A stretch of 64,000 nucleotides of DNA from Escherichia phage UB. Where the stretch lies: sequence record MH383160, one strand, 5' to 3'. The notes beneath the pieces are model-generated. The model had not been told where the DNA came from. It ran no database searches and worked only from the letters and a program-made list of their open reading frames with translations. Position 1 is the stretch's first letter. The number at the start of each line of letters is the position of its first letter. The translations under genes were made by a program, and so were the position numbers. This document shows positions 25,996-40,222 of this stretch, in pieces.

Positions 25996-27132
25996 ATGTT
26001 ACCTTTTGCAAGAATGATGAATTATGGGAACGTAGCACCAGATAAACTAAAAATACGTGATATTGTTGCAGGTGCTAATTCATTATTACTAATAACAGAG
26101 GATAATGAATTATGGGTGCGTGGTAATAATGCGTATGGCAAATTAGGTATAGGAACTGATACTATAGTGAATGTAACCGAGTGGACTAAAGTTAGAGATG
26201 ATGTTAAGTTTGCTTGTGCTAGTAATTTAGTATGCGTTGTATTAACTGTAGATAATAAAATTTTATACTGTGGTGATGAATGGTTTGAATCTGGTGGTTC
26301 GACAAGTTCTAAAGTTGTTACATGGAAAGATGTTACGACACAATTTAGTGCAGTGAATCTAAGCACAGTTCGTGAAATGAAAATAACTTATTATTGTGTA
26401 GGATTACTTACAAATGATAATAGATTATATGCTAAAGGATATGATAATAACCAATCATTTGGTGGTTCAACAAGCAAAGTTAATGCTGTATTAGTTGCGT
26501 CAAATGTTTCAAAATTCTACACTTCTCTATCTGGTACTATATATTCTAGTACTACTGGTGGTTACTATCGCTGTGGTATAAGCAATACTGGAGCATTGGG
26601 TACTAGCACAAATTTAACTTCTTATAATTTGTACTCTGCTCCCGAATTTGCATCCGAATGTGCAGTTGGTATGTCAACATTAAACTCTGGTATATTATAT
26701 TATGATACTAATGGTATCACTAGATATGTTATAGCAGGTCAAAATAGAAATTATCAACTAGGTAATTCTTCTTCAAATACCACAAACGTATATTCGTATA
26801 CAGAATTAACCGGATATAGAGGCAGGTTTAGGGATTTGTGGAGTGATATGAATAACTCTGTTCTTTCTTTTGCTATAAGCACAGATGGCAATACTTTATA
26901 TTATGCTGGTACTAACAATACACTATCTTCTGGTGATCCTGGTGTTGAATATTCATCTGCATTCAAAGAAGTACCACACGGGTTTAATGATATAACAAAG
27001 GCGGCATCGTTAGCATATCTATCTATAGTGCAAGATTCAACGGGATGGTATTATTCTGGAAATGCAACTACGTTATATGGTTTGCCATCGAGTGGTGAAT
27101 TTATACCATTACCATTACCAACATTAATTTAA
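25996..27132 (+). CDS. Leader-tagged RCC1-like repeat protein, paralog 1 (378 aa)
   Basis: Start at MLPFARMMNYGN, preceded by AAGGAGG; repeated Y..G.N..GQLG-type motifs (KLGIGTD, YAKGYDNNQSFGGST, NYQLGNSS). Confidence 0.85.
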   Translation: MLPFARMMNYGNVAPDKLKIRDIVAGANSLLLITEDNELWVRGNNAYGKLGIGTDTIVNVTEWTKVRDDVKFACASNLVCVVLTVDNKILYCGDEWFESGGSTSSKVVTWKDVTTQFSAVNLSTVREMKITYYCVGLLTNDNRLYAKGYDNNQSFGGSTSKVNAVLVASNVSKFYTSLSGTIYSSTTGGYYRCGISNTGALGTSTNLTSYNLYSAPEFASECAVGMSTLNSGILYYDTNGITRYVIAGQNRNYQLGNSSSNTTNVYSYTELTGYRGRFRDLWSDMNNSVLSFAISTDGNTLYYAGTNNTLSSGDPGVEYSSAFKEVPHGFNDITKAASLAYLSIVQDSTGWYYSGNATTLYGLPSSGEFIPLPLPTLI

Positions 27133-27138
27133 ATATAG

Positions 27139-27169
27139 GCCAGTACTTGATACTGGCTTTCTTTTTTTT
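27139..27169 (+). terminator. Rho-independent terminator of the cassette
   Basis: GCCAGTACttgaTACTGGC followed by TTTCTTTTTTTT; recurs with near-identical sequence after paralogs 2, 3, 4, 5, 6, 8, 10 and 11. Confidence 0.7.
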
Positions 27170-27170
27170 G

Positions 27171-27204
27171 TATTAAATATAGTATAATGAATAAGGAGGG
27201 ATTT
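27171..27204 (+). promoter_or_regulatory. Cassette promoter (-10 TATAAT) plus SD
   Basis: TATTAAATATAGTATAATGAATAAGGAGG then ATG; no clear TTGACA -35; identical module before most paralogs. Confidence 0.55.
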
Positions 27205-37721: not shown

Positions 37722-37792
37722 ATTTTATGCCAGTACTTAACACTGGCTTTTCTTTTTGATTAAATATAGTATAATGAATAAAGGAGGATTTT

Positions 37793-38998
37793 ATGTTACC
37801 TTTTCCAAGGATGATAAAATACGCAAATAAAATGAAAGTTCCTGAAGTGAAAGAAATCTTTATTTACAATGGTTATAGTGCGTCAGTTATTCCAGCAACA
37901 GCACTCTTACTATTATATAAAAATGGAGACTTAATGGGTATAGGTGGAACTAGTTCACAAAACTATGGATTCGGAAATGGTGTACCTAATGCGAAAGTAA
38001 AAGAGTGGACTTTAATATACCAAAATGTAAAACGTTTTAGAACAGCCCAAGGTTCTTTTAATTTAATCCAAACCGAAGATAATAAATTTTATTACAGTGG
38101 CGTAGGTAGAGCTATTGGTACAGGATTAAGTACTGTCAGTACTTATACTGATTGTACTTCATATTTTACATCAGTATTCAATGCAACACAATTGTCCCAA
38201 ATTAAGGACATTCAAATTGTAGGGGAGGGTATTTTTGTTTTACTTCAAAATGGTACGCTATATGGAATGGGGGCCAATACACAGGGATATTTTGGTAATA
38301 ACACAACCACAAGATTATCAACATTTACTTCAATTAATACGAATGTGGATAGTGTAAAAACAGGTTCAAGTGCAGTGATTGTACAGAAAATTGATAAAAC
38401 ACTTTGGGTCACTGGTCAAAACACATGGGGTTCACTTGGTATAAGCAATGGTGAAACTAACATTAGAGTATGGACACAAATGGGTGCATTAGCCAACAAT
38501 ACTGTTATACATTATGAACTTGGTGGGAGTGCATCATGGGTTGTATCTAAACACAACACGAATAATACATATACAGTTCGTGCAAGTGGGATTCAATCGG
38601 AAGGTAACTTGGGTAATGGTTCAGCCGCTTCATCAGGGACAGTATTATCTACAATCTCCACTCTACCAATATCCGATAATATGGAAATGAAATCAAATTC
38701 ATTAACATATGGTGGGCTTACGGTTAAAACTACCAATTCACTTTATATGTGTGGTATAAACACATATGGTAGGCTCGGTCGCGGTAATACAACATCAAGT
38801 ACTACATTTGTAGTTCCAGTTGATGCACCTAAAGTTGGCAGCATCGAGTTATTCTGTCCAAGTGAATGTACAAATGTGTATATGGATAATCAAGGGGATG
38901 TGTATTTGAGTGGCTATATCCCACAAGCGACAGGTACAACAGTTTCTGATTATTACACTAAATTTCAATTATATAAAATACCCAGTCGTGGTATATAA
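37793..38998 (+). CDS. Leader-tagged RCC1-like repeat protein, paralog 11 (401 aa)
   Basis: MLPFPRMIKYAN; GINTYGRLGRGNTT. Confidence 0.85.
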   Translation: MLPFPRMIKYANKMKVPEVKEIFIYNGYSASVIPATALLLLYKNGDLMGIGGTSSQNYGFGNGVPNAKVKEWTLIYQNVKRFRTAQGSFNLIQTEDNKFYYSGVGRAIGTGLSTVSTYTDCTSYFTSVFNATQLSQIKDIQIVGEGIFVLLQNGTLYGMGANTQGYFGNNTTTRLSTFTSINTNVDSVKTGSSAVIVQKIDKTLWVTGQNTWGSLGISNGETNIRVWTQMGALANNTVIHYELGGSASWVVSKHNTNNTYTVRASGIQSEGNLGNGSAASSGTVLSTISTLPISDNMEMKSNSLTYGGLTVKTTNSLYMCGINTYGRLGRGNTTSSTTFVVPVDAPKVGSIELFCPSECTNVYMDNQGDVYLSGYIPQATGTTVSDYYTKFQLYKIPSRGI

Positions 38999-39069
38999 AA
39001 TAAAGCCAGTATTTTGTACTGGCATTTTTTTGTCCTAAATATAATAACGATTTACATTTGGAGGATACA

Positions 39070-40222
39070 ATGCTACCCTTTGGAAGAATTATCACATCAT
39101 CAAAAAAGAACATACAACCTTCTGTTACAAAAATAGCTTCATCTGATACAACAGTTTTTGCCCTTATGTCAGATGGTACGTTGTACAGTAGAGGCTCTCA
39201 AGAGTTTGGGCAAATGGGTATAGGTAATATTATAACACAAACCAAATGGGTTTTGTGCAATACAAACGTAGAAGATCTATGGGTTCGGGTATGAGTCAAC
39301 ATTAATTAAAAAGAAAGATAATACGATGTGGTATGCTGGAAATGGTGCATCATTCGGTTTATCAACTGATAAGTCAACAACGTGGGCTTCTGCAAAGATA
39401 GTGTTTGATAGAATAACAGCACTTGGAAAAACAATAAAACAAATTGCAGTTAGTGCAGGTGCATTAAGCGTATTATGTACAGACAACACGATATGGAATA
39501 CGGGTTATGGTAGTTATGGACAACTGGGAAATGGTAGAAGTACCGATTCACTTTCATCATTTGTACAAGGAACAGTACCTACTGGAGTAACACCATCCAA
39601 AATACTGGCAAATTTTCTTATGCAAGGATTTATTGGAACCGATGGGAGATTGTATTATACTGGTGCAATATCAGGCGTAGGTACAACCGACATGACGTTA
39701 TATTCAAAGTACACGTTATGTTCTCAAATAACTAATACCTATACGGTGAAAGATTATACAACAAACTCAAGTTACTTCGCTTTTGCTATAGCAAGTAATA
39801 ATAGTACTAATAAATTATTTGCATATCATGGTGGTGGACAATACTTTGGTCAGTTAGCAAATGGTTCTACATCACAAACATATATTTCGTTAAGACAAAC
39901 AACACAAGCACCAGGTGATATAATAAGAAGCAGTGTGGGTTATTCATATTTTTCTAATCATATTATAACTTCATTAGGTGTTTACGCAACTGGTTATAAC
40001 ACAGGCGATAACGCAGGTCAATTGGGTATAGGTACACAAACAGATGTGTCGGCCTATACCAAATGTGTACTACCAATAGAGATGAATATGAATAACGTAT
40101 ATGTTACAGCAACTTTATACAGAACTTACTTAACCGATGGTATACAAATTTACAGTACTGGACAAAATATTACAGATGGCGGTATTGCCAGTACTGTATT
40201 TGTCAAAGATTCACCATTTTAG
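39070..40222 (+). pseudogene. Leader-tagged RCC1-like repeat gene, paralog 12 (divergent leader MLPFGRIITSS), interrupted by a 1-nt frameshift near 39285
   Basis: Frame 1 ends ..NVEDLWVRV* at 39294; the next frame continues KIYGFGYESTLIKKKDNTMWYAGNG...; dropping one base in GTTCGGGTA fuses them. Confidence 0.6.

What the first reader, a model, noticed from the sequence alone, without database searches (positions are those of the whole stretch)
25996..39105. Leader conserved at nucleotide level, including synonymous sites
The first 36 nt (atgttaccttttgcaagaatggttaagtacgggaat) are near-identical across paralogs even at third codon positions, while everything after codon 12-13 is unalignable. 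That points to gene conversion anchored on the leader and upstream cassette, or to selection on the RNA/DNA itself. A targeting peptide (like T4 internal-protein capsid-targeting sequences, though this leader lacks the Glu of the L-x-E prohead-protease site) or a structural strand of the propeller are alternatives.
Basis: partly seen in the sequence, partly recalled or inferred. Interest (0 to 1): 0.8.

Follow-up and report, generated by a model that had tools for sequence, protein, structure and literature searches.

The report
Shared address tag on jumbo-phage virion proteins
Twelve neighbouring genes of this giant E. coli phage all start with the same 12-amino-acid tag, which probably places very different binding proteins in the virus particle, and whose DNA is also part of a repeat that lets whole genes be swapped between phages.

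Summary
Twelve tandem genes (25996-40222, + strand) of a 121Q-like jumbo coliphage start with MLPFARMVKYGN. Eleven copies have 0-7 mismatches in 36 nt.

Two separate things explain it.

(1) The peptide is a conserved tag: M-[L/I]-P-F-x-R-h-h-x-Y-G-N, followed by a Pro-rich linker. It is found across Rak2-like jumbo phages (114 unique sequences from 14 sources). It sits on at least five unrelated body types: RCC1 and Kelch propellers, LamG lectins, a glycine-rich domain and phrog_6011. AlphaFold leaves it outside the fold. Published mass spectrometry finds these proteins in virions of CBB, phAPEC6 and GAP32, and CBB peptides run through the tag, so it is not cleaved off. Its most likely role is docking or incorporation into the virion. 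That role, and the acceptor, are inferred.

(2) The synonymous-site identity is lineage-specific concerted evolution. Here the tag is the 3' end of a ~110-nt repeat (terminator hairpin, -10 box, Shine-Dalgarno, leader). Relatives without that repeat keep the peptide but vary the codons. Homology blocks between related phages end at the repeat edges, so whole genes are shuffled.

RNA-level selection and a propeller-strand role are not supported. No searched paper mentions the tag; the genes are annotated "DNA condensation protein".

The parts
25996..27132 (+). Array gene 1. MLPFARMMNYGN tag (25996-26031) on an RCC1-like propeller. It has its own -10-like box GTAAATATGATATAAT at about 25964-25979 and no upstream terminator.
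   Evidence: The same first-gene promoter sequence occurs upstream of the Munch array.
27137..27204 (+). Intergenic cassette, the type copy. It holds terminator hairpin AGGCCAGTACTTGATACTGGCTT plus a T-run (27137-27169), the -10-like box TTAAATATAGTATAAT (27173-27188) and the SD AAGGAGG. Together with the 36-nt leader it forms the ~110-nt direct repeat. The other full copies begin at 28321, 29558, 30819, 31627, 32843, 35297 and 37729, with a degenerate one at 39005.
   Evidence: terminator-like sites 22 against 6.5+-2.7 expected. Compensatory stem changes appear across lineages. Promoter function is inferred only: the sigma-70 scan does not pick it because it has no -35.
27205..28314 (+). Array gene 2. 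Tag MLPFGRMVKYGN on an RCC1-like propeller. It is the ortholog of EJP2 gene L003:5651.
   Evidence: the bodies are 85% identical, yet the leader is closer to own-genome paralogs.
28385..29572 (+). Array gene 3. Consensus tag on an RCC1-like propeller.
29625..30812 (+). Array gene 4. Tag MLPFARMMNYGN on an RCC1-like propeller.
30884..31621 (+). Array gene 5. The same tag (MLPFGRMVKYGN) on a non-propeller glycine-rich body (phrog_4474, related to Pfam Gly_rich_2).
   Evidence: (no RCC1). In the AF2 model the body has pLDDT 95-99 and the tag has pLDDT 47 as coil.
31694..32836 (+). Array gene 6. Consensus tag on a seven-bladed RCC1-like propeller. It is the ortholog of phAPEC6 gp005, which MS found in virions.
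   Evidence: AF2 gives the propeller at residues 21-380 pLDDT above 90, and gives the tag pLDDT 54. Foldseek best match is UVR8.
32908..34083 (+). Array gene 7. Consensus tag on an RCC1-like propeller. It is the ortholog of phAPEC6 gp006 (virion MS).
34093..35280 (+). Array gene 8. The tag has 2 mismatches. The gene abuts gene 7, which ends at 34083, and has only an SD upstream, with no terminator/promoter cassette. It is absent from phAPEC6.
35362..36540 (+). Array gene 9. Consensus tag on an RCC1-like body that is interrupted by a frameshift (extra G in the GGG run at 36127-36129). This gives a 269-aa product ending at 36171. The same truncated product (phAPEC6 gp007, 30.06 kDa) was detected in virions.
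   Evidence: The same 810-nt ORF is annotated in JP4, 121Q and G17.
36552..37721 (+). Array gene 10. Tag MLPFGRMLKYGN with an SD only and no cassette, on an RCC1-like propeller. It is the ortholog of phAPEC6 gp010 (virion MS).
37793..38998 (+). Array gene 11. The most divergent full tag (MLPFPRMIKYAN, 7 mismatches), although it has a full cassette. RCC1-like propeller.
39070..40222 (+). Array gene 12. Degenerate tag MLPFGRIITSSK (39070-39105) on an RCC1-like body that is frameshifted after about 74 codons (stop at 39292-39294; the rest is ORF 39326-40222). It is also split into two ORFs in 121Q (genes 235 and 234).

Best explanation
The leader is two things at once.

(1) As a peptide, it is a modular N-terminal tag, M-[L/I]-P-F-x-R-h-h-x-Y-G-N, followed by a Pro-rich linker. 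It is the only element shared by a fast-changing tandem array of virion-associated binding-module proteins of Rak2-like jumbo phages. The tag is retained in the mature proteins. It most likely acts as a flexible docking or incorporation peptide that fixes otherwise unrelated bodies (RCC1 or Kelch propellers, LamG lectin folds, a glycine-rich domain) to one common acceptor in the virion. A surface position, as accessory adhesins, is the more likely one.

(2) As DNA, in the 121Q-like lineage of this window, the 36 nt are the 3' end of a ~110-nt direct repeat: terminator hairpin, -10-only promoter-like box, Shine-Dalgarno and leader. This repeat precedes most genes of the array. It is homogenised within each genome by recombination or gene conversion, and it supplies the homology by which whole gene bodies are inserted, deleted and reordered between phages. 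That is why even rare synonymous codons are identical.

Shown: the peptide conservation, its modularity across folds, its position outside the fold, virion presence, retention of the tag, lineage-specific synonymous conservation, within-genome homogeneity, and mosaic junctions at the repeat edges.

Inferred: that the tag is what causes incorporation, the identity and location of the acceptor, the adhesin role, and promoter activity.
For: Peptide conservation. All array genes in 14 sources start with the tag. Over 114 unique sequences, M1, P3 and F4 are invariant, and R6 is present in 96, Y10 in 103, G11 in 96 and N12 in 104.

Modularity. Five or more body types follow the tag: RCC1, Kelch, LamG/ConA-like, Gly_rich_2 and phrog_6011. 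In Vequintavirinae-like and other phages the same LamG and Gly-rich bodies lack the tag. In 35 of 120 Gly-rich homologs a different motif, M-x-E-h-h, stands in its place.

Structure. AF2 places the tag outside two different, confidently folded bodies, with pLDDT 54 and 47.

Virion presence. In phAPEC6, gp003, 005, 006, 007, 009 and 010 are in Table 1 of PMC7247149, and the listed masses match the ORFs exactly. In CBB, CBB_536, 537, 548, 549, 551, 552 and 553 were found. GAP32_001 was also found.

Retention. Three fully tryptic peptides from CBB virions lie inside the tag and cross its boundary: LLQYGNK, YANVIVEYATK and LFEYANVIIPPNYK.

Truncated carrier. The truncated 269-aa gp007 is still found in virions.

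Nucleotide level. The same-codon fraction in leader versus body is 0.82/0.45 here and 0.90/0.45 in phAPEC6. It is 0.58/0.50 in Munch and 0.57/0.50 in Kae01. Rare codons are fixed only in Asteriusvirus. The cassettes are genome-specific.

Concerted evolution. The body of 27205 is 85% identical to its EJP2 ortholog, yet its leader differs from that ortholog at 6 nt and from own-genome paralogs at 2-3.6 nt. EJP2-Munch orthologs behave the same way. All 17 Munch copies carry I2 where every other clade has L2.

Shuffling. Of 75 homology-block 5' ends, all 75 lie within -99..-11 of a leader ATG. Of 77 3' ends, 59 lie at +31..+45 and only 4 lie inside bodies. Gene order and content differ among six close relatives.

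Composition. The bodies have a median pI of 6.0, 5.8% K+R and about 40% S+T+N+G, which is adhesin-like and not DNA-condensing.
Against: No experiment shows that the tag is necessary or sufficient for incorporation. No acceptor has been identified.

MS of purified phage cannot tell surface proteins from internal ones. 121Q-type heads do contain an inner body (PMC5646251, PMC7247149), so an internal location remains possible.

Peptides covering residues 1-6 were not observed, so trimming of the extreme N-terminus is not excluded. The retention evidence comes from CBB, not from this phage.

Homology blocks would end at the repeat edges whenever neighbouring genes differ. The junction pattern therefore shows whole-gene mosaicism but does not prove that crossovers occur inside the repeat.

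Homogenisation is patchy. Gene 37793 has a full cassette but 7 leader mismatches.

Codon 2 (TTA 23/24, ATA 16/17) and GGG at codon 11 are enriched even in lineages without the cassette. A small nucleotide-level effect near the start codon is therefore not excluded.
Confidence: 0.6

Rival explanations
1. Head-targeting signal for internal cargo. The tag directs the proteins into the prohead (inner body), as the T4 internal-protein capsid-targeting sequence does. The diversified propellers and lectin folds are then co-injected effectors, for example inhibitors of host defence proteins.
For: The logic matches T4: a diverse set of proteins with only a conserved N-terminal sequence in common (PMC3012670). 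The locus is hypervariable between close relatives. The proteins are present in virions. 121Q and phAPEC6 have an inner body whose components are unknown. RCC1-type propellers are protein-binding scaffolds (general knowledge, e.g. BLIP-II).
Against: The tag has no Glu and no L-x-E site. Tag-spanning tryptic peptides in CBB virions show no cleavage at the tag boundary. The bodies are 25-45 kDa, low in charge and rich in S/T/N/G, unlike the small charged internal proteins. The LamG and Gly-rich bodies match virion or baseplate PHROGs and, weakly, a cyanophage fibre.
Confidence: 0.2
2. The conserved element is the nucleic acid, and the peptide is incidental. It would act as a translation-initiation region, an RNA element, or purely as a recombination site.
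For: Rare codons are fixed in the 121Q-like lineage. Codon 2 is almost always TTA or ATA in all clades. The SD AAGGAGG can pair with CCUUUU of codons 3-4 in some minimum-energy folds.
Against: In Munch, Kae01, CBB, BF, XbC2, Yen9-04 and GAP32 the peptide is equally conserved, while synonymous codons follow background usage. Fold z-scores for five of six start regions lie between -0.07 and +0.56. The sixth, a Munch cassette-bearing region, scores -1.96, with 8 of 200 shuffles folding at least as well. Rfam gives no hit at E<=1. Non-synonymous positions such as P3, F4, Y10 and N12 are invariant or nearly so over bodies that are about 20% identical.
Confidence: 0.07
3. The tag is a recognition handle for an assembly chaperone, or a homo-/hetero-oligomerisation motif that bundles paralogs. 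It would not be a direct dock on the virion.
For: It is retained, flexible, amphipathic and short, and is followed by a linker. Phage fibres often need dedicated chaperones (general knowledge).
Against: No candidate chaperone is linked to the array; the neighbouring genes give uninformative PHROGs. A chaperone handle would not by itself explain why unrelated folds all end up in virions. The all-copy L2-to-I2 switch in the Munch lineage fits any single common partner, so it does not discriminate.
Confidence: 0.1
4. The tag is a structural strand of the beta-propeller (velcro closure).
For: N-terminal strands close many propellers (general knowledge). Most carriers in this window are propellers.
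Against: The same tag sits on LamG, Gly-rich and phrog_6011 bodies. AF2 closes the propeller with residues 21-380 at pLDDT above 90 and leaves residues 1-20 outside at pLDDT 54-66. A Pro-rich linker separates the tag from the body.
Confidence: 0.02

Closest known systems
T4 internal-protein capsid-targeting sequence (CTS) of IPI/IPII/IPIII (PMC3012670)
   Same: A short N-terminal sequence is the only thing shared by a diverse, fast-evolving set of virion-associated proteins. The locus is polymorphic between close relatives.
   Different: There is no sequence similarity, no Glu and no L-x-E protease site. The tag is retained in virion proteins (CBB peptides), whereas the CTS is cleaved. The cargo is 25-45 kDa beta-rich binding modules rather than small charged proteins. 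Location inside the head has not been shown.
PeSL promoter-early stem-loop cassettes of T4-type phages (Arbiol et al. 2010, PMC2839356; PMC4122927)
   Same: Both are repeated intergenic composites of stem-loop terminator, promoter and SD in a hyperplastic region. Insertion, deletion and replacement junctions between related phages coincide with them.
   Different: Here the repeat runs 36 nt into the coding sequence, so the homology arm also encodes a functional peptide. The promoter-like box has a -10 but no sigma-70 -35. The repeat is confined to one gene family on one strand. Mini-circles were not tested.
Conserved N-terminal anchor peptides or domains of secondary receptor-binding proteins in multi-RBP phages (Klebsiella KP32/KP34-type, CBA120, G7C, PhiK64-1/RaK2). 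This comparison is from my own knowledge and was not checked in the paper library.
   Same: A conserved N-terminus attaches exchangeable, host-specific C-terminal modules to a common virion site. The clade is known for branched, multi-fibre virions.
   Different: Those bodies are trimeric beta-helix tailspikes or depolymerases. Here they are single-domain propellers, lectin folds and a Gly-rich domain. The tag is only about 12 residues, and no T4gp10-like acceptor has been identified.
Eukaryotic RCC1 / 'DNA condensation protein' (the current database annotation)
   Same: Ten of the twelve bodies are true RCC1-like seven-bladed propellers.
   Different: The fold name is the only basis for the annotation. 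The bodies are near-neutral with 5.8% K+R. The same tag and the same locus carry non-RCC1 folds, and CBB has the array without any RCC1. Nothing points to DNA condensation.

Membership tests
T4-type capsid-targeting sequence (CTS) | A short conserved N-terminal sequence shared by otherwise unrelated virion proteins | tested here: met
   The tag is present on all array genes, covering at least 5 body types.
T4-type capsid-targeting sequence (CTS) | It ends in a prohead-protease site (L/I-x-E) and is removed on maturation | tested here: not met
   The consensus has no Glu. Tryptic peptides LLQYGNK, YANVIVEYATK and LFEYANVIIPPNYK from CBB virions lie in the tag and cross its boundary. The test was done in a relative, not in this phage.
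T4-type capsid-targeting sequence (CTS) | The cargo lies inside the capsid and is ejected with the DNA | not testable with these tools
   MS shows virion association only.
T4-type capsid-targeting sequence (CTS) | The tag is sufficient to target a foreign protein | not testable with these tools
   This needs reporter fusions. One hint is that the truncated 269-aa gp007 is still in phAPEC6 virions.
PeSL-type mobile regulatory cassette | An intergenic composite of stem-loop terminator, promoter and SD, repeated many times | tested here: met
   There are nine copies in the window. Terminator-like sites number 22 against 6.5 expected. Stems are kept through compensatory changes.
PeSL-type mobile regulatory cassette | The promoter is a strong sigma-70 early promoter (-35 and -10) | tested here: not met
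   TATAAT is present, but the scan finds no acceptable -35. The promoter class and timing are unknown.
PeSL-type mobile regulatory cassette | Indel and replacement junctions between related phages coincide with the cassettes | tested here: met
   All 75 5' ends and 71 of 77 3' ends of homology blocks lie within about 110 nt of a leader ATG; 59 of the 3' ends lie at +31..+45. Array orders differ.
PeSL-type mobile regulatory cassette | Recombination between cassettes yields mini-circles | not testable with these tools
   This needs outward PCR or long reads.
RCC1-like repeat beta-propeller (PF00415/PF13540/PF25390) | RCC1 repeats forming a seven-bladed propeller | tested here: met
   Pfam hits were found for 7 of the 8 proteins tested. 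The AF2 model has pLDDT 91. Foldseek to UVR8 gives E 9e-20 and TM 0.74. This does not hold for gene 30884.
RBP N-terminal anchor peptide system | A conserved N-terminus on exchangeable receptor-binding bodies | tested here: met
RBP N-terminal anchor peptide system | The bodies are trimeric tailspikes or fibres, and a defined acceptor (e.g. a T4gp10-like domain) exists | tested here: inconclusive
   The bodies are modelled as single-domain monomers, and oligomeric state was not tested. No acceptor was found; neighbouring genes were uninformative. There is only a weak fold hit to the cyanophage Pam3 fibre (TM 0.31).

The most novel reading that the evidence does not exclude
The MLPF tag is a general virion-addressing code of Rak2-like jumbo phages: any protein that carries about 17 N-terminal residues is mounted on (or loaded into) the particle. 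The array would then be a rapidly reshuffled library of host-binding or host-neutralising modules. One sequence element would be selected at two levels at once: as a peptide for docking, and as DNA, being the homology arm that exchanges the cargo genes. A parallel system with a different tag (M-x-E-h-h) on the same Gly-rich bodies in Vequintavirinae-like phages would make such clade-specific tags a wider, unrecognised principle.
Probability: 0.35. Interest if true: 0.75.

Novelty: new variant of a known kind. Interest (0 to 1): 0.6.

Why it matters
It re-reads a conspicuous and misannotated gene family of giant enterobacterial phages. The genes are labelled [quoted passage not shown]. They appear instead to be one system of tagged virion proteins that also includes Kelch, LamG and glycine-rich proteins.

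It gives a testable handle: a 12-17-residue tag for asking how jumbo phages load accessory proteins, and possibly for displaying or packaging foreign proteins on 121Q-, CBB- or GAP32-type particles.

It also shows how a coding leader can be built into a promoter-terminator shuffling cassette. That explains why array content differs sharply between phages that are otherwise about 95% identical.

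Tried and rejected
RNA structure. Single-sequence folds of six start regions gave z-scores of -0.07 to +0.56 for five of them. The sixth, a Munch cassette-bearing region, gave -1.96, with 8 of 200 shuffles folding at least as well. Rfam at E<=1 gave nothing.

Codon bias as the cause of synonymous identity. Rejected, because the fixed codons include rare ones.

Recent duplication as the cause. Rejected, because the bodies are about 20% identical and have orthologs in other genera.

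Solved structures. No phage homolog appears in the PDB by sequence. By fold, only UVR8 and RCC1 match the propeller, and a weak hit to the cyanophage Pam3 fibre (TM 0.31) matches the Gly-rich body. That hit is too weak to locate the protein.

Sigma-70 scan. It does not recognise the cassette promoter, and promoter-like sites are not enriched (79 against 75).

Literature. A search for 'MLPF' and a reading of the 121Q, phAPEC6, CBB, fENko-Kae01, fEgEco12, PA5oct and jumbo-phage comparative papers found no mention of the tag.

MS supplements. Peptide tables are not held as text for phAPEC6 or for fENko-Kae01.

IMG/VR scan. A degenerate leader pattern returned only 121Q, BF, CBB, GAP32 and one 355-kb contig.

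Neighbouring genes. They gave no clue to an acceptor.

Protein database. The search with the propeller was shallow, with only 16 hits.

Full report
WHAT IS THERE

The window comes from a 121Q/PBECO4-type (Asteriusvirus) jumbo coliphage. The region 25000-40500 matches 36 phage records. The best of them (JP4) covers only 58% of it at 95% identity.

Between 25996 and 40222 lie twelve tandem + strand genes. The 36-nt leader ATGTTACCTTTTGCAAGAATGGTTAAGTACGGGAAT (MLPFARMVKYGN) is found 7 times with <=3 mismatches, where none is expected by chance. It is found 11 times with <=7 mismatches. A 12th, degenerate copy lies at 39070-39105.

The real start codon is the ATG of MLPF. The 'MNKEG' of the longer ORF calls is the Shine-Dalgarno region.

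Ten of the twelve bodies are RCC1-like. Eight were scanned against Pfam and seven hit RCC1 families. For gene 31694, AlphaFold2 gives a seven-bladed propeller with mean pLDDT 91, and Foldseek's best match is UVR8 at E 9e-20 and TM 0.74. Genes 35362 and 39070 are RCC1-like but frameshifted. Gene 30884 carries the same leader on an unrelated glycine-rich body.

THE REPEAT UNIT

Nine genes are preceded by a cassette. It consists of a hairpin GCCAGTACTTGATACTGGC with a T-run, the box TTAAATATAGTATAAT, the SD AAGGAGG, and then the leader. Conservation starts at about -70 and stops at codon 12-13, so the direct repeat is about 110 nt long.

Terminator-like sites are enriched, 22 against 6.5+-2.7 expected, and the + strand ones are the cassettes. 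Across lineages the stem is kept through compensatory changes such as GGCC/GGCC, GGCT/AGCC, TGAC/GTCA, GGTC/GACC and ATACC/GGTAT.

The -10-like box has no acceptable -35, so promoter function is inferred.

Genes 34093 and 36552 have only the SD and the leader.

PEPTIDE OR NUCLEOTIDE?

Within the window, at identical degenerate amino acids, the same codon is used in 82% of leader comparisons and 45% of body comparisons. The bodies are about 22% identical. The fixed codons include rare ones: CCT 57/57 against a body frequency of 0.27, AAG 43/45 against 0.29, TAC 45/56 against 0.26, and GGG 38/54 against 0.10.

The peptide is conserved far beyond this lineage. Every gene of the equivalent array carries it in EJP2, Salmonella phage Munch, Klebsiella phage fENko-Kae01, Cronobacter GAP32, Pectobacterium CBB, Yersinia fHe-Yen9-04, Serratia BF and Xanthomonas XbC2. 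Over 114 unique sequences, M1, P3 and F4 are invariant. R6 is present in 96, Y10 in 103, G11 in 96 and N12 in 104. A linker [IKVT]-[AVI]-P-x-P follows.

In Munch and Kae01 the same-codon fraction in the leader is 0.58 and 0.57, against 0.50 in the bodies. Most genes in these two phages are translationally coupled and lack the cassette. In the cassette-less clades, codon choice follows body usage.

Selection therefore acts on the peptide. The extra synonymous identity is specific to lineages in which the leader is part of the repeated cassette.

Five of six start regions fold no better than shuffled sequence (z -0.07 to +0.56). The sixth, a Munch cassette-bearing region, scores z -1.96, with 8 of 200 shuffles folding at least as well. 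Rfam finds nothing.

A residue remains unexplained. Codon 2 is TTA in 23 of 24 cassette-less copies and ATA in 16 of 17 Munch copies, and GGG is enriched at codon 11 in all clades.

CONCERTED EVOLUTION AND SHUFFLING

Several bodies have clear orthologs in other genomes that are much closer than any paralog in the same genome. Under simple divergence, orthologous leaders should then be the more similar ones. The opposite is seen.

- Window gene 27205 and EJP2 gene 5651 have bodies 85% identical, yet their leaders differ at 6 nt. The 27205 leader differs by only 2-3.6 nt from its own-genome paralogs, whose bodies are about 30% identical.
- EJP2 10239 and Munch 9572 have bodies 49% identical, with 12 leader differences against 6.1 within the genome.
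- All 17 Munch copies have Ile2, where every other clade has Leu2.

The cassettes are likewise uniform within a genome and different between genomes.

I compared the arrays of the window, phAPEC6, JP4, 121Q, G17 and ECO103. All 75 homology-block 5' ends lie -99..-11 from a leader ATG, and 49 of them sit at the 5' edge of the hairpin. Of 77 3' ends, 59 lie at +31..+45 and only 4 lie inside bodies.

Gene content and order differ. The window reads O A L C B D E P F H Q R. phAPEC6 reads S N A J M C B D E F K H I. G17 reads O J A M G N C B E * F H I.

One caveat applies. Blocks must end at the repeat edges wherever the neighbouring genes differ. The pattern therefore proves whole-gene mosaicism with junctions hidden in the repeat, not the crossover sites themselves.

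WHAT THE TAG DOES

It is modular. The bodies behind it include RCC1 and Kelch propellers, LamG/ConA-like lectin folds, the Gly_rich_2 domain and phrog_6011 'virion structural protein'. CBB has the array with no RCC1 at all.

Homologous LamG and Gly-rich bodies in Vequintavirinae-like and other phages lack the tag. Thirty-five of 120 Gly-rich homologs start with a different conserved motif, M-x-E-h-h.

AlphaFold2 leaves the tag outside both bodies tested. For the propeller, the tag has pLDDT 54 and the body above 90. For the Gly-rich protein, the tag has pLDDT 47 and the body 95-99.

Published proteomics places these proteins in purified virions.
- phAPEC6: gp003, 005, 006, 007, 009 and 010. 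The masses in Table 1 of PMC7247149 match the ORFs exactly.
- CBB: CBB_536, 537, 548, 549, 551, 552 and 553 (PMC5259590).
- GAP32: GAP32_001.

The CBB peptide table contains three fully tryptic peptides that lie in the tag and cross its boundary. They are LLQYGNK (CBB_553), YANVIVEYATK (CBB_548) and LFEYANVIIPPNYK (CBB_536). So the tag is retained, at least from residue 7 onward.

The truncated 269-aa product of the frameshifted gene (phAPEC6 gp007, equivalent to window 35362-36171) is also in virions.

The bodies are near-neutral (median pI 6.0), with 5.8% K+R and about 40% S+T+N+G. This does not fit the database label 'DNA condensation protein'.

The best reading is a retained, flexible docking tag that mounts interchangeable binding modules on a common virion acceptor. 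A surface position is somewhat favoured, for three reasons: the body types, PHROG matches of the LamG bodies to baseplate and giant virion proteins, and a weak fold hit of the Gly-rich body to a cyanophage fibre (TM 0.31).

None of this locates the proteins. An internal, T4-IP-like cargo that keeps its tag uncleaved remains a live rival, because 121Q-type heads have an inner body.

COMPARISON WITH WHAT IS KNOWN

[quoted passage not shown] Two differences stand out: the repeat extends into the coding sequence, and the promoter lacks a -35.

The peptide side resembles the T4 capsid-targeting sequence in logic (PMC3012670). It fails the defining cleavage feature and shares no sequence with it.

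It also resembles the N-terminal anchors of secondary receptor-binding proteins. That comparison rests on my own knowledge, and no acceptor is known here.

I found no paper that mentions the tag. A degenerate DNA scan of IMG/VR returns only Rak2-like genomes.

VERDICT

The RNA-selection and propeller-strand ideas are not supported.

This is a new variant of known kinds. It matters mainly because it unifies and re-annotates a prominent jumbo-phage gene family and gives a directly testable virion-addressing tag.

Noticed in passing
window 21493-25893, - strand: A second tandem paralog array lies here: about 20 ORFs of 59-82 aa (most 59-69). They have a conserved N-terminus (MHKEYY / MNKEHKEFY) and a hydrophobic C-terminus (...LLLIFRY), and are interrupted by a 221-aa ORF (23608-24273, phrog_29152). 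The same array is annotated in JP4 and 121Q. [quoted passage not shown]
   Followed up: partly
window 36127-36129 (gene 35362-36540): An extra G in a GGG run frameshifts this RCC1 gene and gives a 269-aa product. The same 810-nt ORF is annotated in phAPEC6, JP4, 121Q and G17, and the truncated protein (gp007, 30.06 kDa) was found in phAPEC6 virions. It could be a conserved truncation or a programmed frameshift; this is unresolved.
   Followed up: partly
window 39070-40222: The last array gene has a divergent tag (MLPFGRIITSSK). The tag resembles the MLPFPIISNTN flavour of Eneladusvirus phages. The gene is frameshifted after about 74 codons, and the same split into two ORFs is annotated in 121Q (genes 235 and 234).
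   Followed up: partly
P0021-P0125 (homologs of window 30884-31621); L014:6995-7645; L015:8001-8843: Glycine-rich (PF21722) homologs from about 150-kb Vequintavirinae-like and other phages carry a different conserved N-terminal motif, M-[LI]-E-[LMT]-[LM] (35 of 120; for example PVP-SE1 protein 19 starts MFEMMLATS). A LamG homolog in PBES 02 starts MNEMLMLGQ. This may be a parallel clade-specific tag system. In PVP-SE1 these genes lie among replication genes, not in the tail module.
   Followed up: partly
leader codons 2 and 11 in all loci (e.g. window 25999-26001, 26026-26028): Codon 2 is almost always TTA (23/24 in cassette-less clades, against 0.65 in bodies) or ATA (16/17 in Munch, against 0.43). 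The rare GGG is enriched at codon 11 in every clade. Neither codon usage nor cassette homogenisation explains this.
   Followed up: no
window 28223-29572 and 29559-30812 ORF calls; L001:3506-4810 (phAPEC6 gp002): Because the cassette has no in-frame stop in some copies, ORF finders and GenBank annotations start several of these genes upstream, inside the terminator/promoter cassette. For example, phAPEC6 gp002 is annotated from MLQSLLKL... rather than from the MLPF ATG at 3614. phAPEC6 also lacks annotations for leader-bearing ORFs at L001:3, 2434, 6063 and 7325.
   Followed up: partly
window 40877 (and L011:28016): A hairpin with the same AGTAC...GTACT core (CATCCAGTACttgataGTACTGGATT plus T-run) occurs just outside the array, between the neighbouring - strand genes. 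The hairpin type is therefore not exclusive to the array.
   Followed up: no
L004 (fENko-Kae01) and L013 (CBB) array starts: In both phages with mapped termini, the tagged-gene array begins a few hundred bases from the boundary of the ~20-kb direct terminal repeat. The window's upstream region of small - strand ORFs may therefore be terminal-repeat DNA.
   Followed up: no
window 27189-27216 and other copies: The SD AAGGAGG is complementary to CCUUUU (codons 3-4). Some minimum-energy folds pair them with the AUG in the loop. The z-scores are not significant, and the pairing is lost in Munch (CCAUUU).
   Followed up: partly
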